The position numbers were made by a program, and so were the translations under genes. The notes below the pieces were generated by a model, which saw only the letters and a list, made by a program, of their open reading frames with translations, ran no database searches and was not told the origin of the DNA. From a virus, in the IMG/VR virus record IMGVR_UViG_3300045988_160931, positions 46,005 to 110,004 of that record: a stretch of 64,000 nucleotides of DNA; one strand, given 5' to 3'. Below are positions 2,897 to 51,941 of the stretch, piece after piece. Numbering within the stretch: the first letter of the stretch is position 1; each line of letters opens with the position of its first letter.

Positions 2897-5035
2897 GTGA
2901 TTATTATTCAAATAAGGAAGAAAAACGGTAGAATTGATAATTTTGATTCTAATAAAATCCGGAATGCTATTATTTCTGCATGGATTCAAATTGGAATGCC
3001 AGATTTTAATAAAATCGATGAGATTGTTTCTACTGTACAAGAAGAAATAAAGGATAAAGAAAATGAAAACGATTACACATCGGTTGGAGAAGTAGAGAAT
3101 ATTGTTATGTCTGTTCTTTTCAAAGAAGTCCCAGACGTGGCAAGAGAGTATTCTAGTTACAAAATGGATAGAGAAAGAGCGAAAAAGAACCCTACAGAAA
3201 TTGAAAAGGTTCTTTATGTAAACGATGAAGTTGGTTCTGAGAACGCAAACAAAAATGTTGAATTGACGCATATTAAAAACGCTTACCTTGCTGAAATTCC
3301 TAGTAAAGAAATGATGCGAAAACTTCTCCCGAAAGATTGTGTGGAAGCACATGATAAATCAATTGTGTATTTCCACGATGCAGCTTATAGTGTAAGAAGT
3401 ATGGAGAATTGCAGATTGCTAAATCTTGATGAACTTCTTCAAAATGGTTGTGAAATAAATGGTGTTTGGATTGACAAGCCAAAGTCATTTAGAACCGCTG
3501 TTACGATTGCAACACAGGCTCTCACGCATATAACTTCTAATAGTTATGGTGGTTGTACAATCAATTTACTTCATCTAGCAAAATTTGTAGATGTGAGTAG
3601 ACAAAAAATCAAAAAGAAATACGATAATTACAATATTGATGATGAAACAAAAGCTAAACTTGTATCAGATGACTTGAACGAAGAAATTAAGCAAGGAATG
3701 CAGACATTTACCTATCAAAACCAGACACTTTGTTCTTCAGTAGGGCAGGCTGTATTTTTGACTGTATCTGTATATCTAAATGAAGAGCCTAAATATACAA
3801 ATGATCTGATTTTGATTTTTACAGAGATGCTACGACAAAGAATCCAGGGGATAAAGGATAAGAGTGGTGCCTATGTCAATCCTAATTTCCCTAAGATTCT
3901 TTATTTTCTTGACAAAGATACAATGCGTGGCGGTAAGTATTATGATGTAACAAAACTTTGTGCAGAATGTTCGGCTAAGAGATTAGTCCCAGATTATATG
4001 AGTGTAAAGAAACATATGGAACTAAAAGGCATTTGCACAGCAAGCATGGGTTGCCGAGCATTATTATCTCCATGGCGTAATCCGAAAACAGGAAAACTTC
4101 AAGTCTGGGGTAGGGCAAATATGGGAGTACAATCATTAAATCTCCCTTACATTGCAATGGAGAACAACGAAAATCATTCTGAAGAAATCCTTTTTGAGAA
4201 TTTAGACAAATATCTTGACATCGCATATCGAGATATGTTGTGGAGAATAAATCATGTGGCAAAGATTAAAGCGAAATCTTGTCCTTTAATGTGGGTATAT
4301 GGTGGAGTTTCACGTCTTAATCCAGAAGATAATCTTGAAAGTCTTGTGTATGGTGGTTACTATACGATTAGTCTCGGCTATAGTGGACTTTATGAATGTA
4401 TAAAATATATCACTGGTGAAAACCATTGGGAAGGTAACGGCAAAATCCTTGCTCATAAACTACTTGATTACATCAATTCAAAAAATGATGAATTCGGAGA
4501 GAAGATAAATGTAAGTATTGCACTTTATGGAACGCCATCAGAAGTACTTACAACAAAGTTTGCAGATGCTTGCCTAAGAGATTTCGGACAAGTTGGCGAT
4601 GGCACTCAAAGGCATTATCTCACAAATTCATATCACGTCCCTGTATTTGAAAACATGGATGCCTTTACAAAACTAACAGAAGAAGCACAATTTAGTGACA
4701 AAACTACTGGCGGCAGCATTAGCTATGTAGAAGTTCCAAATCTAAGTAATAATCTTGATGCAGTACTAGAAGTAATAGAGCATATTGGGAATACTTGCTT
4801 ATATGCTGAATTGAATAGTGAAGTATCTCAATGTGAGAACCCAGATTGTATGTTCTCTGGATATGATTTCAAGAAAATTCAAGATGGTGGCACTCTGAAA
4901 TGGCAATGCCCTAAATGTGGCGAAACAGAAAGAGTAAGGACAAGCTATCGTGTATGCGGATATATCAGTAATCTAAATCAGCTCACTGTTGGTAGGGCAT
5001 CTGATATTCATGATAGAAAGAAACATTTGAATTGA
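2897..5035 (+). CDS. nrdD: anaerobic ribonucleoside-triphosphate reductase (class III)
   Basis: N-terminal ATP-cone-like segment (IQIRKKNGRIDNFDSNKIRNAI). C-terminal Cys4 cluster (CENPDC...CPKC) followed by the glycyl-radical motif RVCGYI. GTG start. Confidence 0.9.
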   Translation: MIIIQIRKKNGRIDNFDSNKIRNAIISAWIQIGMPDFNKIDEIVSTVQEEIKDKENENDYTSVGEVENIVMSVLFKEVPDVAREYSSYKMDRERAKKNPTEIEKVLYVNDEVGSENANKNVELTHIKNAYLAEIPSKEMMRKLLPKDCVEAHDKSIVYFHDAAYSVRSMENCRLLNLDELLQNGCEINGVWIDKPKSFRTAVTIATQALTHITSNSYGGCTINLLHLAKFVDVSRQKIKKKYDNYNIDDETKAKLVSDDLNEEIKQGMQTFTYQNQTLCSSVGQAVFLTVSVYLNEEPKYTNDLILIFTEMLRQRIQGIKDKSGAYVNPNFPKILYFLDKDTMRGGKYYDVTKLCAECSAKRLVPDYMSVKKHMELKGICTASMGCRALLSPWRNPKTGKLQVWGRANMGVQSLNLPYIAMENNENHSEEILFENLDKYLDIAYRDMLWRINHVAKIKAKSCPLMWVYGGVSRLNPEDNLESLVYGGYYTISLGYSGLYECIKYITGENHWEGNGKILAHKLLDYINSKNDEFGEKINVSIALYGTPSEVLTTKFADACLRDFGQVGDGTQRHYLTNSYHVPVFENMDAFTKLTEEAQFSDKTTGGSISYVEVPNLSNNLDAVLEVIEHIGNTCLYAELNSEVSQCENPDCMFSGYDFKKIQDGGTLKWQCPKCGETERVRTSYRVCGYISNLNQLTVGRASDIHDRKKHLN

Positions 5036-6216: not shown

Positions 6217-6444
6217 ATGTTAAAATACAAAAATGAATGTGTTGGATGCGATTTACCATGTGTTGATTGCGGTAGAAAACGTATTGCTCATATGTACTGT
6301 GATTCTTGTGGTGAAGAAGCCGATGAATTATATCACATGATTGATTCTGCTTATGACAGTCAATACATTTGTAAAAGTTGCAGAGATTCTTTGTTTGAGA
6401 TATTTACGTTAGATGATTATCCATCTAGCTGTTATGAAGATTAG
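6217..6444 (+). CDS. small Cys-rich (zinc-ribbon-like) protein
   Basis: 75 aa with CVGCDLPCVDCG, CDSCG and CKSC pairs. Tightly packed between dut and thyX. Confidence 0.5.
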   Translation: MLKYKNECVGCDLPCVDCGRKRIAHMYCDSCGEEADELYHMIDSAYDSQYICKSCRDSLFEIFTLDDYPSSCYED

Positions 6445-6451
6445 GTAAGGA

Positions 6452-7213
6452 GTGATATTATTGAGCAATATAGATAATAGAGTAAGACCAAAGGTAAAAC
6501 TCATAAGTCATACTCCACATCCAATTGATTTAATTGCAAAATGTGCAGCAGTCTGCTATGATAGCGAACCCAAAACGTCAACAGTAATTCATTGTGTAAA
6601 ATCAGGGCATACATCTATTTTAGAACACGCCAATTTTACTTTCCAAATTGAGAATGTATCACGTTCTCTTTTAGCACAACTCACACGCCATAGAGTTGGC
6701 GTAGCATTTAGTGTAATATCTCAAAGATATGTCTCTATGGAGAATACCCCATTTGTTACTCCCAGAGCAATAAAAAGTACAACTACTACAGTTAATGCGA
6801 TAAGTATTATTCAAAATACGTTTGATAATATCAGAAATGATTATTTGGAATTGCGAGATATCGGAGTATCAAAAGAAGATGCACGTTGTATTCTCCCCAA
6901 TGCTTGCTCTTGCAAGATTATAATGACAATTAATCTAAGGGCATTGTGTCATTTGTGTAATGAGAGATTATGTTCAAAAGCACAGCTTGAAATTAGAGAA
7001 ATGGTTCAAAATATGAAAGGCTGTATTTTGAACCTTGAAGATATTCCAAATGATTTCAAGCAATTTATGAAAAATAAGATGCTTGTGCCAAAATGCTGCA
7101 CTTATGCTGTAGAACATTGCCCAGAATCAAAGGGGTGTGGTTTAAGATTATCTGCAAATGAAATAAACCAGTATATTAAAGAAAGGAATGAGCCAATTGA
7201 ATTTGATTCATAA
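6452..7213 (+). CDS. thyX: flavin-dependent thymidylate synthase
   Basis: ThyX signature RHRxxSxxxxSxR, present as LTRHRVGVAFSVISQRY. Confidence 0.9.
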   Translation: MILLSNIDNRVRPKVKLISHTPHPIDLIAKCAAVCYDSEPKTSTVIHCVKSGHTSILEHANFTFQIENVSRSLLAQLTRHRVGVAFSVISQRYVSMENTPFVTPRAIKSTTTTVNAISIIQNTFDNIRNDYLELRDIGVSKEDARCILPNACSCKIIMTINLRALCHLCNERLCSKAQLEIREMVQNMKGCILNLEDIPNDFKQFMKNKMLVPKCCTYAVEHCPESKGCGLRLSANEINQYIKERNEPIEFDS

Positions 7214-28500: not shown

Positions 28501-31173
28501 AGCTAACGCAAGAGAACCATAGTATTTAACCATGCTTGCATTAGCACCATTTAACCCAGACAAGTATTTTCCGAGTGAAGAATTTCCTTCTCCAACAGCA
28601 GATACAAAATCTTTTTGTGACAAGCCTGTTTGCCTACATCCACTATTATATTCTTTAATAATACTAGATACGCTTCTAAAATTTTTCTCAGATGCTTTCA
28701 TCGCTACTTGTGACGAAACCATATTCTTAGAAAATGTCTCAGAAGATAATGCTCCATCTGCAATAGATTTCGCATATTCTTTAGCACTATTACTTGCACT
28801 CGCTAAACAAGATTCAAAAGCCTGACTTCTGCCTTGCCCATTCGCTATAGCCTCATTAAAACTATTTATTGCCGAAATATCAGAATTCAAACTAGCTGAG
28901 AAAGAATCTGTTATAATACCCTTTTCTTTGTTTCCAAAAGAACCAGTAAAAAGAGATTTCAGAGAATCCCGTTTTACTAAACCTTTATCCCCAATTGCCG
29001 AAAATGCAGCTGTAACAGCACCAACCAAAGTCGGTAATGCTCCAACTTTTTGGACAACAACGTCTAACGCACTACCAAGCTTAATGATAATATCTAATGC
29101 TTGCTTTAGACTGTCGGAATCGAGAAAATCCATAGAAATAGATTGACCAGTCGCTTTTAACTGATTTACTTTTGCTTCTATAGAATCCAAAGCCTTGCTC
29201 ATTTCTTTTTCAGCAGAACCGGCAGATTGATTCGCAGAAACATCAAAAGCTTCTCTTGCTTTATCCCAGTTTTGCATCAAAGCAGCAAATACATTTGCCC
29301 TATTCTTACCAGCTAAGGTATCTGTTAACTCAGCTTGTTGTAAAGAAGATAAACTACCCCATTTTTCAGAAAGTTCATCTAAAATCTTATAGGTAGACTT
29401 TAATTCGCCGTTCGTATCTGTAATGCTAATCCCAGCAGTTTCTTTCATCTTTTTGTTTAGAGCGTCAGTAGACTCAGCGACATTATCTGTTTCTTCGCCC
29501 AATTTTTCTAATTCGTCTTTATTCCCGATAAGACGAAGTGCTATGGTTTTCATACCATTGCCGACTTGTTCTGGGTCTTGTATGATTTCGTTTGCAGATG
29601 CAATCATCGCAATACTTTCATCTATATCATTCCCGGCTGTTTTTAATGCAGACGCAGATCGTTGCATTGCATCACCAATGCCACCACTGGAGATTGCAAA
29701 GCGATTTCCGATCTCATTGTATTTGTCAACGATACTTATTGCATTATCAGCTTCTATCCCAAAAGCTTTCATCGTAGAAATAACACTTTGCGTTGCATCA
29801 TCTACAGAAGAAATTTCATCACCTACAGTAGCATAAATATTTGCTACCTTAGCCAAATTCTGCGAGTCATCAAAAGAATATCCCAGTCTCGCAAAATCAC
29901 CAGTAGACGTTACAAACCCATCTACTGTCGCTCCAATCTCTTTTGCACTCTTAGATGCACTGCCTAAAAAGTTATCATAAGAAGAATCAGTTTCGTCAGT
30001 AACTTTTTTTAGCTCTGTCATTGCAGAATCAATGCTTTTTACTTGATCATACATTGATTTCACAATTTGCGTAGCACCGCCCATTAAAGTCGCAGCAGAA
30101 TAATACGAACTTAGTTCTCTTGCTTTTTCTTTAAGATCACCAAAAAATGATGTTGTTTTTAATCCTGCCTTTTCTGCCTCTGCATCTAACTCCTTAAACT
30201 CCTGTTGAATTCCTTTCAATTGGATTCCATCACAGGAACGAAGTCTTTCTTTTAGTTCGTCTATCTTCGAACCAAAAACATCGGCAGCTTTCGAATTTGT
30301 TTGTAACCAAGCGTCCATTTTCAAAGAAAACATCTGTTTTTGAGAAGCTAATCCCTGCATGGATGATGCCTGTCGATCGATATTCGCTGCTTGCTTTAAT
30401 TGATTTTGCGTCTGTTCGACTTGTTCTTTATATTTCTTCCAGTGATCTATTGCTTTATCAATATCACCAGAATCAAAGGCGCTTTTCATACCAGACAGAG
30501 ATTGCTTCGCCCCATCTAAGCTAGTTACAAGCTTCTTCCCTTCGTCACTCAACTTAACATATTTTGTAGTCAAGTTAGAAAGTTGAGAATCGAATTCTCC
30601 AAACCCAGTATTTGTACCAATAGCAGTTTTTAGATCGGCAATTCTCTGAGAAAATCTTTCAACTTTTACATCTGCTTTTTCAGCCTCTAATGCAAGGTTC
30701 CCAAGTTGAGTCTCAGAAAAACCGCCTTCAAATTCAGTTTTTAAGTTCTTATAATTTTCTTTTAATCCTTCGAGTCTTGCATTTACAGAATTTAATTCAT
30801 TTTCACTGCCACCCTTAAATGACAGCCTTAGAGAATCGACTTGCAATCTCCCTATTTCGGCAAGATTCTGTTTCATCTCTTTATATGCAAGATTTATTCT
30901 TTCAATATTACTAGAATCTGCCCCAGGGATATTTGATTTTATTCTGTTGTTGCTGTTTACTGATATTGACGAAACGCTAGGATTTATTGTTATCTTTTGA
31001 TTTGAAGAAAGATTTTTTATTTGTGATTTAATATTAGATATCTGTTTCTGAACATCGCTAGTGTCTAATTTGATCTTTATTGGGTCAACTTTTATATTTT
31101 TTAACTTTGAACTTATGCTATTTAGACTAGATTCATCAAGTTCTGTGCCTAATAGAATTTTGAATTCATCCAA
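22549..31173 (-). CDS. tape measure protein (2874 aa)
   Basis: Very long alpha-helical repeat protein with hydrophobic segments (LPTLVGAVTAAFSAIG, GTIALNVATAALNAILMAGISYAI) and the tape-measure-type motif GGELGEEIVVHGGHWQTIGENGAEFF. Confidence 0.9.
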   Translation of the reverse strand: MDEFKILLGTELDESSLNSISSKLKNIKVDPIKIKLDTSDVQKQISNIKSQIKNLSSNQKITINPSVSSISVNSNNRIKSNIPGADSSNIERINLAYKEMKQNLAEIGRLQVDSLRLSFKGGSENELNSVNARLEGLKENYKNLKTEFEGGFSETQLGNLALEAEKADVKVERFSQRIADLKTAIGTNTGFGEFDSQLSNLTTKYVKLSDEGKKLVTSLDGAKQSLSGMKSAFDSGDIDKAIDHWKKYKEQVEQTQNQLKQAANIDRQASSMQGLASQKQMFSLKMDAWLQTNSKAADVFGSKIDELKERLRSCDGIQLKGIQQEFKELDAEAEKAGLKTTSFFGDLKEKARELSSYYSAATLMGGATQIVKSMYDQVKSIDSAMTELKKVTDETDSSYDNFLGSASKSAKEIGATVDGFVTSTGDFARLGYSFDDSQNLAKVANIYATVGDEISSVDDATQSVISTMKAFGIEADNAISIVDKYNEIGNRFAISSGGIGDAMQRSASALKTAGNDIDESIAMIASANEIIQDPEQVGNGMKTIALRLIGNKDELEKLGEETDNVAESTDALNKKMKETAGISITDTNGELKSTYKILDELSEKWGSLSSLQQAELTDTLAGKNRANVFAALMQNWDKAREAFDVSANQSAGSAEKEMSKALDSIEAKVNQLKATGQSISMDFLDSDSLKQALDIIIKLGSALDVVVQKVGALPTLVGAVTAAFSAIGDKGLVKRDSLKSLFTGSFGNKEKGIITDSFSASLNSDISAINSFNEAIANGQGRSQAFESCLASASNSAKEYAKSIADGALSSETFSKNMVSSQVAMKASEKNFRSVSSIIKEYNSGCRQTGLSQKDFVSAVGEGNSSLGKYLSGLNGANASMVKYYGSLALAKAGTIALNVATAALNAILMAGISYAINGFISAIQKKTQAEKDARESAIEFGKTTSENVKQLEDSYIAAQKYAGTKQASEANKTLENTINSTNSALGLQVSAFDNAKSSADEYTKSIENSTKATLKESLVKLEQATKSAKDTLKDTFDGTFFNPQEGIQLSSIANQDKSTDIIKNLYVGKKYMGTTQNSPNGMSIYTLDISGKKSATKIADYYYSLIEAKDELTKKGEIESDEYKEIDEEITRLKNDVESYTKALYNQKKIEFESENGIPTTKEDYEKMLNYINSSANGMEALQNQLRVIASSEFGDKFATNIANDFNKVTKATDTQIKALRDSFKEQGDSSLSWFDSLSAGDKQLVYKISAETDDTSLWDLTKWEEELNRLKETGETTSESLSKFYDVMSNSDDGNFRSQIENSIDSITSLQDSLDKLDLGELSDSDLANLAMNYPQLAPYINDTDALRDSLENLIDDIKSGLDDSFQSQIEELGGESTVAGQAMLELQKAIQAINDTPFDISKETQGIENYKTAVNESVTATGLSEDSIKKIQARYRSLDGYNPNKLFERTVNGIHLNVSALRELESEYKTQKKTDLTSQIESMSEEYARLYKAMKNCTDTSKTIEYSKQLQELSEQIDSVSQLAAEYDGLTSSYNEWLNAQSTTDEDDMFSKISNGIENMQEQYDLGRVGTDDFRSWVQMMTNADMATASIADLEAMYEKGTSTIQRFFTDDRSGLENFVNDVKAISDELGKNWVNIDKDGNYHIDFGIGGDEEVANMLTEMDNLQISTQQVQILMRALSAYGFDINLDSLNTSVSLLESANEKLKSLGKTSVTFDINTTDIDNVNEQIKEAQSVFDSFKNDDGTININADGAKEAETVLSALITRKQELANPVVMAIDTSQLNDLSLSTQMTNLRMLLQDSNDYELNVSLGIDTSGLESKIQSIIPMLQTMPTEMKAKLGLDDADFQQALANIQNTKLDVGAEVNPNDIATVQQTINSISKEQLISVGVDESAVKGYTSTTAEKDGVTKFNVDSSEVDAYNPEDKNAKVRYSPDLTAVYRANANITDIQRTIYYNTEIVGSVPSGTTTTTAKSGKAHVNGTAYAHGNWGTKDSGVALGGELGEEIVVHGGHWQTIGENGAEFFKYQRGDIIFNADQTENLLKYGKITSGNKRGSAYAEGTAFSNGSGGFSRKVKSKSSAKKESNSSEKSSSSGKSSSSNSSNDSTKEAEQEEDKFEETLDWIEIMIKRIQSAISALDNQIGNVYRRWGYRNADIKRELGLVSDEIGIQQAGYERYMKQANSVGLSGDWARKVREGKIDIETITNEDLSNKIKDYQNWYEKAIECRDAIADLKEKEAELYKNSFDNISSEFDYYTSHVESLKNHIQSLISQEQSKGYIVSASYYERLMGEEQSNLTLLKAQRSEMQAAFDEAMDSGKIQKYSEAWFQMRQSIDEVNAAIDKSNESTLEYIKNIRQLKWDTNDLIHNTISDLSDESDYLINLMKDKKLYDDRGQLTNYGDTTMGLHVANYDIYYGSAQKYANEIKELDKQIEKDGSNKDLIDRRKELIELQQESILAAQDEKQAIVDMVKEGIQLELDYLQDLIDKYEDALDSQKDLYDYQQKISSHTSEISTLEKQLMAYQGDNSEETKATIQKLKVSLEEAKQDLKDTEYDRYISDQKDLLDEIYNEYEDILNARLDNIDNLMLDMIENANNNTQIISDTIKAESEKFGYNISSWFNGIFNDRVIDGGKYKEDKTFSYYEYGDNKKDSIFNSKTGQWGTSVAAMLNLITGYQKMISQREEWLKAFPGKTGKDFNNDLLNYIPILLSDLSDSEREKIIGSLSDIVSDVKENKQSGTSTSSTSSNLLNKSSTSVGNNDIKLLNGEILIPLGNDSGISSLADSSIGAFSLNNIQNIIEDGFLNAINTYGDANTKQVKNVINGGVDFNVTLPNVSNYEEFKTELQHDKNFEKMIMAMTTDRLFGGSSLAKYKRK

Positions 31174-43771: not shown

Positions 43772-45340
43772 TTAATATAATTTTGCTTTATGACTCATTT
43801 TAGCCAACGCAGCAGCATAAACCATAGCGTCAAATTCATCTTCTTCATCATCAAGTTTTGATTCTAATTGCGTCATCACATAATAATTATAAGCCAATGA
43901 ACTATATCTATCTTTACGCATACCACTTTTTTCTTTTATTCTTATGTTTGTACCTTTTACTTCGTATTGTAAATTTATCAATTCATAAACCAATAAACTT
44001 GTCTGTATATATGGCATCTTATACATTAACTGCTCTTCGGGAGTGAGTTTTTCAAAGTTCTTTATTGTGGCTTTCAGTTCTTTTTCCGCCTCTGATTCAT
44101 TCAACAAGAGATTTATCTTACCTGAAATAAAGGCGTTCCTAAGCATAACACAAATATCATTATTAAATTGTACGGTGCCTTTGATTGACCAAATAACCTT
44201 TGGTGCATCTGCCACCTTACAACGTTCTTCCATCGCTTTATTATTACAGCAGGAGAGTGCAGGGTATGTTTCGCCAGTTTCCGGGTCTATAATATCTTTA
44301 ATTAACATATCATATACACCAAGTCCTGTGCCGGCAGTATCAATTACTAAATCAGTACAGTCAAATATACTAAATAATCTGCGTATCTTTAATGCTAGAT
44401 CATCTGTTGTCATTCCTTCAACATTTTCAAGGTACACAATATTTGCGATATATCGTTTGCCATTTGGTTTTGCCGAATTGATAATAATTGAACTAGCATC
44501 GTTAGAGTTCTTATGTTTTGATGCCATCAACGCAATATCAATAGACAATATTCTTCTTTCATCCGGTGCCAGATCAGGTAGTTTAGACCTTTTGGACATA
44601 ACTGTCCGATTTGTATAAAATGCCGTTTTTATCTTTCTTCTACGTGATATATCATTGAATGTAAAGAATGAACCATCAGTATCTCGAATAGGTAGGCAGC
44701 CCATTTCCATTTGGAACATACGTTCATCAAAATCTTCCTCTGACATTTCATCTTCGATTTCAATTCGCTTTTTCAAGCCTTCTTTAATTGCAATTTGATA
44801 AGGTAAGGCACAGACAAAATAACCGGTTCTACCGCCTAATAAATTGAATGTGAAAGCTTTGGATTTTTTGTAAGACCAGTGACTTTCAAACCAACAGGAT
44901 GACATATAAATTTCAATATTAGTTTCAAGAAGTTCTGGCTTGCCTTGATATTCTTTCTTGCTTAAATAAGCTGGTTGTCTAGGCGAACCCAAGAATCTTT
45001 TTAATACAGTATCGATCGTATCTTTGTCGAGCATTCTAAATTCATCCAATACCAATACATTGGCACGGTTACCTCTAGCATTGTCGCCACCTGTAACAAC
45101 TTTTATCCAAGAACCATTATGGAAATTGATATAAGCCAAATTATAACCTATTGAAAAGTTTTTTATCTCTCGTCTTAAATTTTCCGAACCTTCACCATAG
45201 TTTTTCATAAAATCATCGACAATTTTTGAGAGTACTTCATTCGCTTGTGACCTAGTTGCAGACGCTACACAAATTTTTGTTTTAGGGAATAGGATGCAGC
45301 GAACAACGCAAAATAACGCTGTTAGCCAGGTTTTACCAAT
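43772..45340 (-). CDS. terL: terminase large subunit, exon 2 (begins IGKTW...)
   Basis: Starts in the middle of Walker A (..IGKTWLTALF). Walker B-like VLVLDEF. The C-terminal nuclease half includes LSIDIALM. Confidence 0.85.
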   Translation of the reverse strand: MGKTWLTALFCVVRCILFPKTKICVASATRSQANEVLSKIVDDFMKNYGEGSENLRREIKNFSIGYNLAYINFHNGSWIKVVTGGDNARGNRANVLVLDEFRMLDKDTIDTVLKRFLGSPRQPAYLSKKEYQGKPELLETNIEIYMSSCWFESHWSYKKSKAFTFNLLGGRTGYFVCALPYQIAIKEGLKKRIEIEDEMSEEDFDERMFQMEMGCLPIRDTDGSFFTFNDISRRRKIKTAFYTNRTVMSKRSKLPDLAPDERRILSIDIALMASKHKNSNDASSIIINSAKPNGKRYIANIVYLENVEGMTTDDLALKIRRLFSIFDCTDLVIDTAGTGLGVYDMLIKDIIDPETGETYPALSCCNNKAMEERCKVADAPKVIWSIKGTVQFNNDICVMLRNAFISGKINLLLNESEAEKELKATIKNFEKLTPEEQLMYKMPYIQTSLLVYELINLQYEVKGTNIRIKEKSGMRKDRYSSLAYNYYVMTQLESKLDDEEDEFDAMVYAAALAKMSHKAKLY

Positions 45341-46667
45341 CAATTTTGTTATCCTATAAGCTTTTTATCTTATAGTTCTTATAGTTTCCTATAAGTTCAG
45401 CATATATTTTCATCCTCGTTTTACGTTAGGTTTGAGAATTGCAAATTCTCTCATATTACACTATATGTAATAATGCCGGACACTCTTGGAGAGATTATTC
45501 TTTTCGTCACTCTCTATGCGTTACAATTCTATTTGACCTTTTAATTCCAAATAGTTATCTCGGTATTGTCATATAACATAGTTACTTAGATTTCCACCGA
45601 TTTTGCCCGATTTATACTTGATTATCACTAACCAAGAGAGCATTTACTTTGTAATAATTTGAATTTATTATACTTTCTATCTAATTTTTGAACATTTTCG
45701 TTATAATATAAAAGTTCCATCAAACGATATGCTTCTTTTCCATTAAAATAAATTCTATGCTTTCTAGGCGTCTCAGAATATACATGTGATTTAATAGAAT
45801 AGTCATGGCTAACTCTATCAGATATATACTCTAACGCTTTTTTATTATATGATGTGATATGAACAGTTGGATAATACTTTTTATTTTTATTGACATAAAT
45901 GCACCCATCGCCATCTATATATCCTCTTAAAAAATCAATAAAATATTGTTTTAGTACAGGAAATTCTGACATATATGTTTTATTGCAAACAATGTTTTTA
46001 TCAATCAAATCTTCTACTAATTTTTTTGAATAAACTCTCAAACTAACAAGATCTGAAACGGTAACATTTTTATTATTCAAAATAACTCTTTCAAAATGAT
46101 TTTCTTTAATCTCGTGTACTCCGCCAAGTTCATTATTTAAGTCAATTAAAACCTGTTTATCACTCTTCTGCAATCTCATACAAAATTCATAGCTTCTATT
46201 TTCAGAATTGCATATCACGCATCCATCAGCATAAATATATCCTAACCAATATGCTTTATCTGGTGTATCAATTTTTTCAAAATAATTATCGTTGAACTTT
46301 CTGCTTTTATTTTCTAAATAATGCTCTGCATAATGTCTAATTTGTCTTTCTGAGAACCCAAGCTTATTAGCTATATATTTATAGGAATATTTTTTATAAT
46401 TTTGCTCCATATATTTTTTGTCATTGCTGGAAAATATAGAACGATTAGATTTCTTCTTCCCATTATTATGAATCCACCCAGCTATTTGAGTAGCAGAATA
46501 ATTAGTTCCTAATTTAATAGCTATTTCCTTATATGACATATTTTCATAATTATTTGAAATAAAAGTCTTTTGATTTTCATTAAACAATTCTCTTATAATA
46601 AACACCTCTTTTAATAAAAAAGAGGTGGGCGATATTTATTCGCCAAACCTCATTATTACATTTATAT
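45341..46667 (-). mobile_element. group I-type intron (about 1327 nt) interrupting terL
   Basis: The terL frame hits a stop 2 codons after ..FWAARS and resumes at IGKT 1.3 kb downstream. The insert holds a free-standing LAGLIDADG ORF in its own frame. Exon 1 ends in T (46668) and the intron ends in G (45341), as expected for U-1 and omegaG. Confidence 0.7.
45628..46605 (-). CDS. double-motif LAGLIDADG homing endonuclease with two N-terminal HTH-like repeats
   Basis: YWLGYIYADGCV and FLRGYIDGDGCIY. N-terminal MSYKEIAIKLG... and YSYKYIANKLGFSERQIRHY. Confidence 0.85.
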   Translation of the reverse strand: MFIIRELFNENQKTFISNNYENMSYKEIAIKLGTNYSATQIAGWIHNNGKKKSNRSIFSSNDKKYMEQNYKKYSYKYIANKLGFSERQIRHYAEHYLENKSRKFNDNYFEKIDTPDKAYWLGYIYADGCVICNSENRSYEFCMRLQKSDKQVLIDLNNELGGVHEIKENHFERVILNNKNVTVSDLVSLRVYSKKLVEDLIDKNIVCNKTYMSEFPVLKQYFIDFLRGYIDGDGCIYVNKNKKYYPTVHITSYNKKALEYISDRVSHDYSIKSHVYSETPRKHRIYFNGKEAYRLMELLYYNENVQKLDRKYNKFKLLQSKCSLG

Positions 46668-46856
46668 ACTCCGTGCAGCCCAAAACATAAAATGGTTATT
46701 GTGCATCATCGCATAAATCAAAAACTTCTGAAATAATTTCAATTTTATATTCAGATATTCTTCCACAAAACGCTGGGGATTCTCTCGATAAAAACTACCC
46801 CAAATTCCAACGCCTTCAAGAAGCTTATCATTCACAGTGCTTTTTATTTCTATCAT
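46668..46856 (-). CDS. terL: terminase large subunit, exon 1 (63 aa, ends ..MFWAARS)
   Basis: AGAGGTG SD, 7 T, then ATG at 46856. The peptide MIEIKSTVNDKLLEGVGIWGSFYRENPQRFVEEYL... is typical of a TerL N-terminus. Confidence 0.75.
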
Positions 46857-50010: not shown

Positions 50011-50084
50011 TGGTGGCAGAGTCAAGAGTCGAACTTGAATCACAAGTTTATGAGACTTGTATGTTTCCTTTACACCACTCTGCT
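50011..50084 (-). tRNA. tRNA, anticodon CAT (Met or Ile2), with unpaired A1 x C72
   Basis: Hand-folded. Acceptor AGCAGAG/CTCTGCC, T-arm TCAAG-TTCGACT-CTTGA, anticodon stem CAAGT/ACTTG with loop CTCATAA. CCA is encoded. Confidence 0.75.
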
Positions 50085-50093
50085 AATTTTATT

Positions 50094-50171
50094 TGGTCTA
50101 AGTGACAGGGTTCGAACCTGCGGCATCTTGTTCCCAAAACAAGCATTCTAACCAAACTGAATTACACTTAG
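50094..50171 (-). tRNA. tRNA-Pro (TGG)
   Basis: Acceptor CTAAGTG/CACTTAG (C1:G72), T-loop TTCGAAC, anticodon stem CTTGT/ACAAG with loop TTTGGGA. CCA is encoded. Confidence 0.85.
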
Positions 50172-50174
50172 ATT

Positions 50175-50250
50175 TGGTTGGACTAGCTGGGTTCGAACCA
50201 GCGAAATGACGGAGTCAAAGTCCGTTGCCTTACCACTTGGCTATAGTCCA
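50175..50250 (-). tRNA. tRNA-Gln (TTG)
   Basis: Acceptor TGGACTA/TAGTCCA (U1:A72), T-arm GCTGG-TTCGAAC-CCAGC, anticodon stem ACGGA/TCCGT with loop CTTTGAC. CCA is encoded. Confidence 0.85.
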
Positions 50251-50876
50251 ATATAGTATCCTAAAAATGAATACTCTATTGTGTATATGCAACCGACCTT
50301 CGCCGTACCACCCATTTACCGCACACATATTCATCCACTAGGGAGACAAGTCTGAGCGTTTGGGAGCGACCCTTGGCTTCTTGCCCCGGCATATGCCAAA
50401 TCCTATACAAGTCTGATTACTTGTAACTTTCACCCGAACCATTCAGAAGTTTCTATCATTTATATATAATCCTATAGAATATTCCTTGCACATTGGGCTA
50501 CTCGAACCAGAATCTCGCCTTATACCCTAGTTTCCTAGGTTCAGTGCAAGTAAGACTGTGTTTTGATATTTCCTAGGTTTGCATAAGTAATCAGCTTACA
50601 CCTAACTAGGATTCCACTTGTAGTATTTTACAAGTATCTATTTCCACAGCGACAAGATTCCATGATTTTGTGTACAGTAATGTCAGCACATTTGCCACCA
50701 AGGGACTGTTTTCAATCCTCAACAGTATGTTACCAATACTGCCGATTATAGCAACTAGCTTATCAGTTAATATGCTATCTACTTGATTTACAGACAAATT
50801 CTTCAGCAAGTTGGTTAGACTATCTGCACTGAGTTACTGCATACACACAATACAATATTCAATTATCAAGATACTG
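50251..50876 (-). ncRNA. 626-nt ORF-poor spacer inside the tRNA array; candidate large structured RNA
   Basis: Flanked directly by tRNA genes on the same strand. Only one 67-aa ORF in the track. Locally GC-rich blocks (line 50341: 35/60 G+C). Several 6-bp hairpins and a duplicated TTTCCTAGGTT (50531, 50569). Confidence 0.35.
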
Positions 50877-50951
50877 TGGAGCAAACAACCAGAATCGAAC
50901 TGGCATTCTCTGATTGGGAATCAAATGTTCTAACCATTGAACTATGCTTGC
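50877..50951 (-). tRNA. tRNA-Gly (CCC)
   Basis: Acceptor GCAAGCA/TGTTTGC, D-arm GTTC-AATGGTTA-GAAC, anticodon loop TTCCCAA, U73 discriminator. CCA is encoded. Confidence 0.8.
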
Positions 50952-51011
50952 ATGACAAGTCCAACACCCGAAGGTGTATAAAACTATGTTGGTCTAAAAC
51001 CAACAGTGCAG

Positions 51012-51099
51012 TGGTGGGTGAAGTAGGAATCGAACCTACGGTGTTTCTAATGTAACGGATTTACAGTCCGCCGACTTCGCCAACTGGTCACATTCACCC
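51012..51099 (-). tRNA. tRNA-Tyr (GTA), long variable arm
   Basis: 88 nt. Acceptor GGGTGAA/TTCACCC, T-arm GTAGG-TTCGATT-CCTAC, anticodon loop CTGTAAA. CCA is encoded. Confidence 0.8.
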
Positions 51100-51103
51100 A
51101 TAA

Positions 51104-51190
51104 TGGTGCCGCTAACCGGACTTGAACCGGTACGATATCGCTATCGAGGGATTTTAAGTCCCTTGTGTCTGCCTATTCCACCACAGCGGC
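51104..51190 (-). tRNA. tRNA-Leu (TAA), long variable arm
   Basis: 87 nt. Acceptor GCCGCTG/TAGCGGC, anticodon stem AGGGA/TCCCT with loop CTTAAAA. CCA is encoded. Confidence 0.85.
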
Positions 51191-51260
51191 ATTTACGACT
51201 TTCTTATGTGTCCTAAGACATTAAGCTTTCACTGCCAATCCGAAGATCTCAGAGGTCACT

Positions 51261-51337
51261 TGGTGGGCTATGTAGGACTCGAACCCACAGTCAACCGGTT
51301 ATGAGCCGGATGCTTTAACCAATTAAGCTAATAGCCC
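51261..51337 (-). tRNA. tRNA, anticodon CAT (Met or Ile2)
   Basis: Acceptor GGGCTAT/ATAGCCC, D-arm GCTT-AATTGGTTA-AAGC, anticodon loop CTCATAA. CCA is encoded. Confidence 0.8.
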
Positions 51338-51675
51338 TTATGAGTGCTTTATCGTAGCACACGCAATCTGCATTCCTAATCCAATGGAATCTAAATCGCA
51401 CGTCCAACTTTCATGGATAGTTCTGGACAAACTAGTATTCACTCGATTCGTGACAATTCCGGATAGATGAATTACACAAATCAGCTTAACATTTTTTCTT
51501 TGCATATATGCCTTGCAAGGTCTAACCCACTTCTCTACCTTGCTCACCGCAAGCCTACATTAACACTGCGATTCCCATTACCCGTTAAATCTCTACAAGA
51601 AACTACTTCTAACCGCTTGGATTTTAGCTGTTATATCTAAGTGGGCGGTATACTTTCAAATCTTGTACCCACTAT
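51338..51675 (-). ncRNA. 338-nt ORF-poor spacer inside the tRNA array; candidate structured RNA or processed spacer
   Basis: Lies between the CAT tRNA and tRNA-Lys on the same strand. Contains only a 69-aa track ORF with no SD. Confidence 0.25.
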
Positions 51676-51751
51676 TGGTGCAGTTTATGGGATTTGAACC
51701 CATGACTCTCACATTAAAAGTGTGATACTCTACCAGCTGAGTTAAAACTGC
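51676..51751 (-). tRNA. tRNA-Lys (TTT)
   Basis: Acceptor GCAGTTT/AAACTGC, anticodon stem TCACA/TGTGA with loop CTTTTAA. CCA is encoded. Confidence 0.85.
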
Positions 51752-51756
51752 ACATT

Positions 51757-51845
51757 TGGCGTAGAAGGTGGGATTCGAACCCACGGTTCCTCTCGGAATC
51801 ACTAGTTTTCAAGACTAACTCTTTCAACCACTCAGACACTTCTAC
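51757..51845 (-). tRNA. tRNA-Ser (TGA), long variable arm
   Basis: 89 nt. Acceptor GTAGAAG/CTTCTAC, T-arm GTGGG-TTCGAAT-CCCAC, anticodon loop CTTGAAA, G73. CCA is encoded. Confidence 0.8.
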
Positions 51846-51855
51846 GCAGTTTGTG

Positions 51856-51941
51856 TGGTGGGGGTAAAGGGATTTGAACCCTTATGTCACTAGGACAACG
51901 GTACCTAAAACCGTCCTGTCTGCCTATTCCAGCATACCTCC
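51856..51941 (-). tRNA. tRNA-Leu (TAG), long variable arm
   Basis: 86 nt. T-arm AAGGG-TTCAAAT-CCCTT, anticodon stem ACGGT/ACCGT with loop TTTAGGT. One A x C mismatch in the acceptor stem. CCA is encoded. Confidence 0.75.

What the first reader, a model, noticed from the sequence alone, without database searches (positions are those of the whole stretch)
43772..46856. Terminase large subunit split inside its Walker A motif by a group I-type intron carrying a LAGLIDADG endonuclease
Exon 1 (46856-46668) ends ...HNNHFMFWAARS and then runs into ATA TAA. Exon 2 (45340-43772) begins IGKTWLTALF.... Joining them gives AARSIGKT, which is a complete Walker A of the form [AG]x4GK[ST].

The 1327-nt insert contains a separate-frame ORF with two LAGLIDADG motifs (LGYIYADGC, LRGYIDGDGC). 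A further 287 nt follow the ORF, enough for a P3-P9 core. The proposed boundaries have U before the 5' splice site and G as the last intron base.

Splicing would be obligatory for packaging. I could not identify P1/IGS pairing by eye, so the exact junction is provisional.
Basis: partly seen in the sequence, partly recalled or inferred. Interest (0 to 1): 0.65.

Follow-up and report, generated by a model that had tools for sequence, protein, structure and literature searches.

The report
Mobile self-splicing intron in phage terminase
The DNA-packaging (terminase) gene of this SPbeta-like gut phage is interrupted in its ATP-binding motif by a 1,327-base group I intron carrying its own homing-endonuclease gene, which is a well-supported but ordinary new example of a known kind of phage selfish element.

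Summary
On the minus strand, exon 1 is 46856-46668, the intron is 46667-45341 (1327 nt), and exon 2 is 45340-43772. The joined protein aligns without a gap to intact ~596-aa SPbeta YonF-type terminases, and some of these carry the identical FWAARSIGKTWLTALF.

The insert is a real subgroup-IA group I intron:
- Rfam RF00028 matches it only when a short stretch is searched (36.7 bits, below the gathering score of 50).
- A near-identical 312-nt ORF-less copy sits at the same site in a sibling contig. It shows the missing P1: exon GGAGU|AU pairs with AUGCUCU, about 1 kb downstream.
- The LAGLIDADG gene therefore lies in the P1 loop, and its last codons run through the guide sequence and P2.
- P3-P9.1 show strong covariation across 46 relatives from other phages.

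Across metagenome contigs the intron has 0-1 differences, while the flanking exons differ by up to ~9% starting 12-28 nt from the junctions. That pattern indicates recent homing.

Group I introns in phage terminase genes are already published, so this is a new member of a known kind.

Side findings:
- A sibling phage has two introns separated by a 6-nt exon.
- This ribozyme family is enriched at Walker A codons of unrelated ATPase genes.

The parts
46668..46856 (-). terL exon 1 (63 codons, ends ...FWAARS)
45341..46667 (-). group I intron, 1327 nt, inserted between codons (phase 0)
46662..46664 (-). TAA stop in the exon-1 frame, two codons into the intron
   Evidence: Typical of phage group I introns (PMC2504315, PMC3984707).
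46666..46672 (-). P1 5' strand GGAGU|AU. The splice-site U is at 46668.
46628..46644 (-). small GC hairpin GGCGA-N7-UCGCC in the P1 loop (terminator-like by consensus scan)
46603..46627 (-). 10-bp hairpin CACCUCUUUU/AAAAGAGGUG that buries the endonuclease Shine-Dalgarno sequence
   Evidence: function inferred
45628..46605 (-). LAGLIDADG homing endonuclease ORF (325 codons as listed from GUG; the true start may be a nearby AUA or AUU). It has two N-terminal HTH-like repeats and two LAGLIDADG motifs.
45637..45643 (-). P1 3' strand / internal guide sequence AUGCUCU. G45641 pairs with U46668. AAU at 45644-45642 can pair with the 3' exon AUU (P10).
45617..45636 (-). P2: CUUGGUUA-GUGA-UAAUCAAG (GNRA loop). 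It contains the endonuclease stop codon UAG at 45630-45628.
45604..45610 (-). P3 5' strand UCGGGCA
45560..45600 (-). P4 (UCGGUG/UACCGA) enclosing P5 and P5a
45529..45554 (-). P6 CUAUUUGG/UCAAAUAG
45515..45519 (-). P7 5' strand GCAUA, within the family-invariant AACGCAUA
45489..45514 (-). P7.1 hairpin GAGAG/CUCUC between P7 and P3' (the mark of subgroup IA)
45476..45482 (-). P3 3' strand UGUCCGG
45411..45475 (-). P8 (CAU..CCU/AGGAUG) with two extra hairpins inserted in its 5' strand
45400..45404 (-). P7 3' strand UAUGC
45378..45395 (-). P9 CUUAUAG-GAAA-CUAUAAG
45354..45375 (-). P9.1 CUAUAAG/CUUAUAG
45341..45353 (-). family-invariant 3' tail GAUAACAAAAUUG, ending in the terminal G (45341)
43772..45340 (-). 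terL exon 2 (begins IGKTWLTALF; 522 codons plus stop)

Best explanation
[quoted passage not shown] It sits between the Ser and Ile codons of the Walker A motif (AARS|IGKT).

Proposed mechanism:
1. The pre-mRNA folds into the group I core: P3-P8, with P7.1, P9 and P9.1.
2. The guide sequence AUGCUCU (45643-45637) pairs with the end of exon 1 (GGAGU|AU) to form P1, with a U-G pair at the splice site.
3. A free guanosine attacks after U46668.
4. The terminal G45341 then docks, and the exons are ligated to give ...CGG AGU AUU GGU AAA ACC.... This restores an intact TerL ATPase.

The 1-kb P1 loop carries a double-motif LAGLIDADG homing endonuclease. This enzyme cuts intron-less terL alleles, so that repair copies the intron in (homing).

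The endonuclease reading frame ends inside P1 and P2, so translating it would unfold the ribozyme. A 10-bp hairpin over its ribosome-binding site, together with a probable non-AUG start, is inferred to keep its translation low.

Shown here: the anatomy, the structural covariation, the exon continuity, and a population signature of mobility. Inferred: actual splicing, endonuclease activity, and translational control.
For: 1. Exon continuity. The joined protein aligns gap-free with intact homologues, and two of them carry the identical FWAARSIGKTWLTALF.
2. Rfam RF00028 matches full length: window 45378-45655, 36.7 bits, E 5e-8; ORF-less copy 31.2 bits. The model's splice-site U aligns to the U of GGAGU.
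3. L005 carries a 312-nt ORF-less copy at the same site with a ~99% identical core. Its minimum-energy fold gives P1, P2, P3, P4, P5, P5a, P6, P7.1, P9 and P9.1 (-70.1 kcal/mol, z = -3.8).
4. Covariation in 46 family members: 88.4% of cells are paired, against 62% in shuffles and 32-42% with slid partners. 46 of 54 pairs show double changes. The covariation score is 0.648 against 0.191, with 0 of 500 shuffles as high.
5. P1 with a U-G pair changes together with the exon in relatives: UCGGU/GCCGA in L067 intron 2; UAGGU/GCCUG in phi116, paired by eye from the sequence; and 17 of 48 members have GGU|..GCC against 0.95 expected.
6. Endonuclease. Pfam LAGLIDADG_3 E 2e-13. PHROG 4645 E 6e-46. About 31% identity to intron-encoded LAGLIDADG enzymes of Staphylococcus phages, such as I-MsaII. 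Both motif aspartates are present (sequence).
7. Mobility. In six contigs the 1327-nt intron has 0-1 differences, while the exons differ by up to ~9% starting 12-28 nt (3' side) and 28-296 nt (5' side) from the junctions.
8. The spliced frame is under purifying selection: 49-75 nucleotide differences but only 3-4 amino-acid changes, and no stops.
9. The identical endonuclease and arrangement occur in 261 assembly blocks.
10. Precedent in the literature: PMC2504315, PMC11878797, PMC3984707.
Against: - There are no RNA data, so splicing is not shown.
- The Rfam score is below the curated threshold (36.7 against 50). Nothing was reported in the 4.5-kb or whole-window scans.
- P1 is short (5+2 bp with two G-U pairs) and must form across about 1 kb. 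P10 is only 3 bp.
- P7 is invariant in the family, so it gets no covariation support.
- Two terminator-like hairpins lie in the P1 loop. If they were efficient terminators, they would cut off exon 2.
- The exon divergence probably predates intron arrival. The purifying-selection argument therefore does not prove function after insertion.
Confidence: 0.88

Rival explanations
1. The ribozyme is dead and terL is a pseudogene in a decaying prophage. The intron-like sequence remains, but it no longer splices.
For: Splicing is untested. The Rfam score is below the gathering score. Terminator-like hairpins lie in the P1 loop. Some contigs carrying the element are 0.2-1 Mb, so it is integrated as a prophage.
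Against: - Every core helix is intact and matches the covarying family consensus.
- The core is ~99% identical to ORF-less copies in sibling phages.
- Both exons are open and almost all differences between carriers are synonymous.
- Neighbouring structural genes are intact ORFs.
- The same allele is seen in 261 assembly blocks and in diverged phage backgrounds. That is the opposite of a one-off decay product.
Confidence: 0.07
2. This is a fractured gene. A free-standing homing endonuclease has split terL, and two polypeptides (63 aa and 523 aa) assemble into an active terminase without RNA splicing.
For: ORF finders call exon 2 as a separate 523-aa protein from a UUG start, with AGGA 8 nt upstream. 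Genes split by endonucleases are known in phages (established knowledge; fractured genes are described in PMC2677866).
Against: - The break lies inside the P-loop itself (AARS|IGKT), which could not form from two chains.
- A complete covarying group I core with P1, a U-G pair and a terminal G flanks the ORF.
- The ORF-less copy in L005 has no endonuclease yet interrupts the gene in the same way.
- The AGGA and UUG belong to the family-invariant ribozyme tail GAUAACAAAAUUG, which occurs in front of many unrelated genes.
Confidence: 0.03
3. It is another kind of intervening element: an intein, a group II intron, or a translational bypass.
For: Inteins frequently sit in P-loops of terminases and other ATPases (PMC4760082).
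Against: - The insert has stop codons in the exon frame from its second codon, and its ORF is in another frame. It is therefore not an intein.
- There is no group II match, no reverse transcriptase, and no GUGYG...AY ends (sequence).
- 1327 nt is far beyond any known ribosomal hop.
Confidence: 0.01

Closest known systems
Group I introns in large-terminase genes of Bacillus phages and prophages: term-IVS1/2 of the B. cereus group (PMC2504315), and Bastillevirinae TerL introns with spliced RNA shown experimentally (PMC11878797). From memory, also the Lactobacillus phage LL-H terminase intron (Mikkonen and Alatossava 1995).
   Same: - Subgroup IA ribozyme in a phage terL.
- In-frame (phase 0) insertion in a conserved region.
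- A stop codon within the first codons of the intron.
- An optional endonuclease ORF in a loop, and sporadic distribution.
- The 3' ~66 nt of the ribozyme (P9 to the terminal G) is 83% identical to unannotated sites in Bastillevirinae genomes.
   Different: - A different terminase family (SPbeta YonF type) and a different host (a gut Firmicute, probably Lachnospiraceae).
- The site is inside the Walker A.
- The endonuclease is LAGLIDADG, whereas the Bastillevirinae TerL introns carry VSR/HNH-type genes (PMC11878797).
T4 td intron / I-TevI
   Same: A self-splicing phage group I intron with a homing endonuclease whose ORF overlaps ribozyme core sequences, so endonuclease translation must be restrained (as summarised in PMC3984707, citing Gibb and Edgell 2010).
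   Different: - I-TevI is a GIY-YIG enzyme in the P6 loop. Here a LAGLIDADG gene sits in the P1 loop and reads through the guide sequence and P2.
- The control by the SD hairpin is only inferred here.
Intron-encoded LAGLIDADG ('DOD') endonucleases of Staphylococcus Kayvirus/Twort-like phages (e.g. I-MsaII) and of Bacillus phage 0305phi8-36
   Same: Homologous proteins (~31% identity over the two LAGLIDADG domains, E about 1e-15) encoded inside phage group I introns.
   Different: Different host genes (rec, DNA polymerase). The window protein has an extra ~100-aa N-terminal pair of HTH-like repeats.
Mammaliicoccus phages phi116/phi127 terL
   Same: A homologous intron plus a homologous LAGLIDADG ORF (30% identity, E 2e-31) in the P1 loop, also inside the Walker A of a YonF-type TerL.
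   Different: The insertion is 6 nt further downstream (SRGLG|KS). It is not annotated as an intron in the record.
Inteins in terminase and other ATPase P-loops (PMC4760082)
   Same: A selfish element parked in the most conserved ATP-binding codons of an essential gene.
   Different: Inteins splice at the protein level and are in frame. This element splices at the RNA level.

Membership tests
Group I intron | P1 helix between the end of the 5' exon and an internal guide sequence, with a U-G pair at the splice site | tested here: met
   GGAGU|AU pairs with AUGCUCU (46672-46666 with 45643-45637). This is seen in the ORF-less copy by RNAfold and in the Rfam alignment. P1 changes with the exon in relatives.
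Group I intron | Terminal guanosine as the last intron base | tested here: met
   G45341. It is invariant (...AAAAUUG) in all 46 aligned family members.
Group I intron | Conserved core: P3-P8 and P4-P6 domains with the P3/P7 pseudoknot, supported by covariation | tested here: met
   88.4% paired, 46 of 54 pairs with compensatory changes, 0 of 500 shuffles as high. P3, P4/P5, P6, P7.1, P8, P9 and P9.1 all covary.
Group I intron | P7 guanosine-binding helix | tested here: inconclusive
   GCAUA/UAUGC can pair and lies at the position of P7 in the Rfam alignment. It is invariant in all 46 sequences, so there is no covariation evidence.
Group I intron | Reaches the Rfam RF00028 curated gathering score | tested here: not met
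   36.7 and 31.2 bits against 50. E-values are 5e-8 and 2.5e-6 for the short stretches searched. Nothing was reported in larger scans. This is a database threshold, not a biological criterion.
Group I intron | Self-splicing with a guanosine cofactor | not testable with these tools
   Needs an in-vitro transcription and splicing assay, or RNA-seq.
Group I intron, subgroup IA | Extra helix or helices (P7.1/P7.2) between P7 and the 3' strand of P3 | tested here: met
   P7.1 GAGAG/CUCUC is at 45514-45489, and 5 of its 5 pairs covary. Many relatives have a further inner hairpin. I did not resolve IA1, IA2 or IA3.
LAGLIDADG homing endonuclease | Two LAGLIDADG motifs/domains with the terminal acidic residue | tested here: met
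   LGYIYADG and LRGYIDGDG are present. Pfam LAGLIDADG_3 (E 2e-13) and LAGLIDADG_1 match the second domain. PHROG 4645 matches residues 25-316. No solved structure matches by sequence.
LAGLIDADG homing endonuclease | Site-specific cleavage of the intron-less allele and homing | tested here: inconclusive
   There is no enzymology. The population signature fits: the intron is identical (0-1 differences in 1327 nt) in backgrounds whose exons differ by up to ~9% from 12-28 nt outside the junctions.
Terminase large subunit (SPbeta YonF type) | Terminase ATPase and nuclease domains; Walker A restored by exon joining; gene neighbourhood | tested here: met
   Pfam Terminase_6N and TerL_ATPase. 44% identity to SPbeta YonF. 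Gap-free alignment. YonG- and YonJ-like genes lie upstream and a portal gene downstream.
Intein | In-frame insertion without stops, with Hint splicing blocks | tested here: not met
   A stop occurs two codons into the insert, and the ORF is in another frame.
Group II intron | Domain V/VI, GUGYG 5' end, reverse-transcriptase ORF | tested here: not met
   No Rfam group II match at E <= 10. The 5' end is AUAUAA, and the ORF is LAGLIDADG.

The most novel reading that the evidence does not exclude
This intron may belong to a ribozyme family for which the Walker A coding sequence acts as a general landing site.

- 19 of 73 distinct 3'-exon contexts of family members begin at or within a few codons of GK[ST]. 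The rate elsewhere in the same ORFs is 1.3%.
- The genes involved are unrelated: YonF-type TerL, SNF2/SF2 helicases, and KVGKTT-type ATPases.
- Many members have a GCC guide sequence that pairs with a GGU glycine codon.

If true, the near-universal GGU-AAA-AC(N) of P-loops lets these introns jump between non-homologous ATPase genes. It also lets them stack: a sibling phage (L067) carries two family members 6 nt apart. These would have to splice around a 6-nt exon that is also the P1 substrate of the second intron.
Probability: 0.4. Interest if true: 0.6.

Novelty: new member of a known kind. Interest (0 to 1): 0.35.

Why it matters
- **Annotation.** Gene callers split this terminase into a 63-90-aa orphan, an 'endonuclease' and a 523-aa truncated TerL. 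Rfam at its curated threshold misses the ribozyme. The same family goes unannotated in dozens of deposited phage genomes. Recognising it restores the correct protein.
- **Biology.** It adds a clean natural series in near-identical human-gut phage backgrounds: an ORF-less intron, an intron with an endonuclease, and a double intron. More distant relatives provide the intron-less state. A sharp co-conversion signature goes with this series. It would be a convenient system for studying homing, endonuclease gain in a P1 loop, and the conflict between endonuclease translation and ribozyme folding.
- **Limits.** It does not change what is known about how such elements work.

Tried and rejected
- **Rfam on larger stretches.** Neither the 4.5-kb scan (E <= 10) nor the whole-window scan at gathering scores reported any group I match. 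The match appears only when about 350 nt are searched.
- **Unconstrained P1 search.** Searching all family members without constraints gave mostly spurious AT-rich helices, so I dropped it. A constrained GGU|..GCC search worked.
- **Representative genomes.** An exact 30-mer of the intron gave no match.
- **Intron-less junction.** The exact junction GCACGGAGTATTGGTAAAAC gave no match in IMG/VR. I therefore have no closely related empty site, only alleles at about 70% protein identity.
- **Exon-1 junction.** This search in IMG/VR found only L067.
- **Metagenome scan of the 3' junction.** It found two true copies of the same 1327-nt intron and two chance matches.
- **PDB sequence search with the endonuclease.** No match.
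- **The search for related loci with the TerL N-terminus.** One of its search patterns was the intact Walker A, so it is biased towards uninterrupted alleles. I use it only to say that most relatives are intron-less there.
- **Other element types.** I considered an intein, a group II intron, translational bypass and a two-polypeptide terminase, and rejected them (see the rival explanations).
- **Not attempted.** I did not predict the endonuclease structure, because the fold assignment was not decisive for the question.
Full report
**Observation**

On the minus strand, the window contains three ORFs in a row:
- A short ORF starts at ATG 46856 and reads ...HNNHFMFWAARS, then ATA TAA.
- A 325-codon ORF in another frame runs 46605-45628. 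It contains LGYIYADGC and LRGYIDGDGC.
- An ORF from 45343 reads (L)IGKTWLTALF... and ends at the stop at 43772.

The insert is 46667-45341, 1327 nt. 287 nt follow the inner ORF. The base before the insert is U46668, and the last insert base is G45341.

The joined 585-aa protein hits Pfam Terminase_6N and TerL_ATPase, and the inner ORF hits LAGLIDADG_3 at E 2e-13. Its closest deposited relatives are the YonF terminases of SPbeta-like phages at 44% identity. A search of the large protein collection gave many intact ~596-aa homologues at about 70% identity. In an alignment with 13 of them there is no gap or extra residue at the junction. P0003 and P0063 have the identical FWAARSIGKTWLTALF. Only the junction AGU|AUU satisfies both U at -1 and G at the intron end.

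**Is it a group I intron?**

Rfam found nothing in a 4.5-kb scan at E <= 10, and nothing in the whole window at gathering scores. When only 341 nt were searched, RF00028 matched full length at 45378-45655: 36.7 bits, E 5e-8, against a gathering score of 50.

The decisive comparison came from the exon-2 protein's own cluster. A Logan contig (L005) encodes a 99% identical exon 2, but only about 225 nt separate its two terL ORFs. Its sequence shows the same exon ends (..GCACGGAGT| and |ATTGGTAAAAC) around a 312-nt insert. That insert is ~99% identical to the last ~320 nt of the window's intron and lacks the endonuclease ORF.

Exon GGAGU plus intron AU pairs with AUGCUCU, with a U-G pair at the splice site and a 7-nt loop. 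Rfam aligns its conserved splice-site U to exactly this U. RNAfold of the ORF-less precursor predicts P1, P2, P3, P4, P5, P5a, P6, P7.1, P9 and P9.1, and the sub-hairpins within P8, on its own (-70.1 kcal/mol, z = -3.8).

In the window, the guide sequence is therefore at 45643-45637, about 1 kb from the 5' splice site, and the endonuclease gene occupies the P1 loop. Its last six codons (AAA UGC UCU CUU GGU UAG) run through the guide sequence and the 5' strand of P2. AAU at 45644-45642 can pair with the first three bases of exon 2, giving a 3-bp P10.

**Comparative support**

The last ~80 nt of the intron are 80-94% identical to unannotated stretches inside split genes of many Staphylococcus, Clostridium, Clostridioides, Bacillus and Streptococcus phages. 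A wider set of matches, down to about 73% identity, adds crAss-like phages. A pattern built only from the 3' end (ATGCTGAA...GATAACAAAATTG) found 114 stretches in IMG/VR.

I aligned 46 distinct cores and tested a hand-drawn structure: P3, P4, P5, P6, P7, P7.1, P8, P9 and P9.1, with P3/P7 as a pseudoknot. The results:
- 88.4% of cells pair, against 62.2% in column shuffles and 32-42% when partners are slid by 1-3 columns.
- 46 of 54 pairs show changes on both sides.
- The covariation score is 0.648 against 0.191, with 0 of 500 shuffles as high.
- P7 (GCAUA/UAUGC) is invariant, so it is neither supported nor contradicted.

The hairpin between P7 and the 3' strand of P3 (P7.1) places the intron in subgroup IA, like other phage introns. 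I did not resolve the finer subclass.

P1 changes with exon context in relatives:
- UCGGU/GCCGA in the second intron of L067.
- UAGGU/GCCUG in Mammaliicoccus phage phi116, paired by eye from the sequence.
- 17 of 48 members have a GGU|loop|GCC helix just upstream of P2, against 0.95 expected from shuffles.

**The endonuclease**

The ORF has both LAGLIDADG motifs, each with its final aspartate. It matches PHROG 4645 'endonuclease' at E 6e-46. It is about 31% identical to intron-encoded LAGLIDADG enzymes of Staphylococcus Kayvirus phages (I-MsaII and relatives) and of Bacillus phage 0305phi8-36. It is 30% identical (E 2e-31) to the endonuclease in the terL intron of Mammaliicoccus phages phi116/phi127.

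Its Shine-Dalgarno sequence AAAGAGGUG lies in the 3' arm of a perfect 10-bp hairpin (46627-46603), which is part of the predicted minimum-energy fold. The GUG listed as the start is itself part of that Shine-Dalgarno sequence. The in-frame AUU or AUA 3-6 nt further on is the more likely start; this is my inference from the sequence.

Translating the ORF would melt P1 and P2. I therefore infer that endonuclease translation is kept low or delayed. The review PMC3984707 describes the same logic for ORFs that extend into core sequences. The stop codon two codons into the intron in the exon frame is also typical of these introns (PMC2504315, PMC3984707).

ORF-less copies persist in L005 and L067. 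This argues that splicing does not depend on the encoded protein acting as a maturase.

**Evidence of mobility and of a working host gene**

The identical 325-aa protein is indexed in 261 blocks of public assemblies, on contigs up to 376 kb. The gene order is always the same: YonJ-like, YonG-like, exon 1, endonuclease, exon 2, portal.

I compared six of these contigs with the window:
- The 1327-nt intron has 0-1 differences.
- The flanking sequence differs by up to ~9% (17-19 differences in the first 200 nt of exon 2).
- The differences begin 12-28 nt from the 3' junction and 28-296 nt from the 5' junction.

At that divergence about 100 differences would be expected in the intron. An element that is identical in diverged backgrounds, with short co-converted flanks ending at the predicted splice sites, is the classical footprint of recent homing. 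It also confirms the element's boundaries independently.

In the spliced reading frame, these genomes differ at 49-75 nucleotides but only 3-4 amino acids, with no stops. Most of that divergence probably predates the intron.

Most YonF-type terL genes in IMG/VR are uninterrupted at this site (the search was biased towards intact sites). Together with the intron-less allele in L004, this shows the sporadic distribution expected of a mobile intron. The nearest relative in a representative genome is in an uncultured Lachnospiraceae MAG, which suggests the host group.

**Comparison with what is known**

- Group I introns in large-terminase genes were reported in B. cereus-group prophages as term-IVS1 and term-IVS2, of subclasses IA1/IA2 (PMC2504315).
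- They occur in 5 of 52 Bastillevirinae TerL genes, with splicing shown in vitro and in vivo and with exon skipping (PMC11878797).
- A review names terminases among the usual phage targets (PMC3984707).
- From memory, the Lactobacillus phage LL-H terminase intron dates from 1995.
- LAGLIDADG genes are the less common endonuclease type in phage introns (PMC3984707) but are known (PMC11878797).

The finding is therefore a well-documented new member of a known kind. What is particular to it:
- the position inside the Walker A of a YonF-type terminase;
- the endonuclease gene in the P1 loop reading through the guide sequence;
- the availability of ORF-less, ORF-containing and double-intron alleles in nearly identical phages.

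**Rivals**

- A dead ribozyme in a decaying prophage is unlikely. The core is intact, the exons are open, and the element is widespread in diverged backgrounds.
- A two-polypeptide terminase is implausible, because the break is inside the P-loop. The apparent AGGA-N8-UUG 'start' of exon 2 is part of the family-invariant ribozyme tail.
- An intein, a group II intron and translational bypass are excluded by the stops, the reading frame, the lack of matches and the length.

**Things seen on the way**

- **Double intron in a sibling phage.** In L067 (IMG/VR), exon 1 is followed by the ORF-less intron, then a 6-nt exon AUCGGU (Ile-Gly), then a second 254-nt family member whose P1 (UCGGU/GCCGA) uses that mini-exon, then AAAACCUGG....
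- **Same gene, shifted site.** Mammaliicoccus phages phi116/phi127 carry a homologous intron plus endonuclease at that second site (G|K), 6 nt downstream of the window's site.
- **Another intron in the gene family.** A Lachnospiraceae MAG has a different group I intron just before the Walker B of the same gene family.
- **P-loop bias.** Across the ribozyme family, 19 of 73 distinct 3'-exon contexts start at or within a few codons of GK[ST], in unrelated ATPase genes. The rate elsewhere in the same ORFs is 1.3% (binomial p about 2e-19, not corrected for relatedness). I found no paper in the held library describing such a bias for group I introns. It is described for inteins (PMC4760082).
- **ROOL RNA.** The window also holds a ROOL RNA inside a cluster of ten tRNA genes.

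**Verdict**

Confidence that this is a functional, mobile group I intron with a LAGLIDADG homing endonuclease is 0.88. Novelty: new member of a known kind. Interest: 0.35.

Noticed in passing
L067 (IMGVR_UViG_3300045988_164820), reverse-complement coordinates 6326-6897: A sibling phage with near-identical terL carries two ORF-less introns of this family in the Walker A. A 6-nt exon ATCGGT (Ile-Gly) separates them. The second intron's P1 (UCGGU/GCCGA) is formed by the mini-exon itself. Seen on only one contig.
   Followed up: partly
loci L003-L119 (IMG/VR matches to the intron's 3' end) and window 45341-45404: The ribozyme family is strongly enriched at Walker A codons of unrelated ATPase genes: YonF-type TerL, SNF2/SF2 helicases, and KVGKTT-type ATPases. 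19 of 73 distinct 3'-exon contexts begin at K[ST] or within a few codons of GK[ST], against 1.3% in control positions. Many members pair a GCC guide sequence with a GGU glycine codon (17 of 48 against 0.95 expected).
   Followed up: partly
window 50275-50857 (-) and 50011-51941 (-): A ROOL RNA (Rfam RF03087, 288 bits) lies inside a cluster of ten tRNA genes, upstream of the packaging module.
   Followed up: no
L003 = Mammaliicoccus phage phi116 PV389079.1 65530-68504 (also phi127): The record annotates three hypothetical proteins and an 'endonuclease'. It is in fact a YonF-type terL interrupted by a homologous group I intron plus a LAGLIDADG gene. The insertion is 6 nt downstream of the window's site (SRGLG|KS).
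   Followed up: partly
L120 (uncultured Lachnospiraceae MAG CAJTJZ010000028.1), locus 3277-3718: The nearest terL relative in a representative genome has an intact Walker A. It carries a different ~440-nt group I intron (Rfam 26 bits) just before the Walker B (GRG|ARANLLILDEF).
   Followed up: partly
deposited phage genomes listed (e.g. Staphylococcus phage 6ec 22654-22726, phiCD211 28787-28864, crAss-like cr111_1, Bacillus phages Eyuki and Megatron): The conserved 3' end of this intron family occurs in 84 deposited phage records. Most have no feature annotated under the match, or have tape-measure, capsid or polymerase genes called in pieces. The three introns I scored (window, L005, and a different intron in L120) all fall below Rfam's gathering score (26-37 bits against 50).
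   Followed up: partly
window 46595-46627 (-): The endonuclease ORF has no AUG near its Shine-Dalgarno sequence. The listed GUG start is part of that sequence, so a rare AUU or AUA start 3-6 nt downstream is likely. The Shine-Dalgarno sequence is buried in a perfect 10-bp hairpin.
   Followed up: partly
window 46856 (terL start): The window's TerL begins about 11-17 residues later than its ~596-aa homologues, which start ...KKSEKQLANEKS.RILEGV. The YonG-like gene ends only 14 nt upstream.
   Followed up: no
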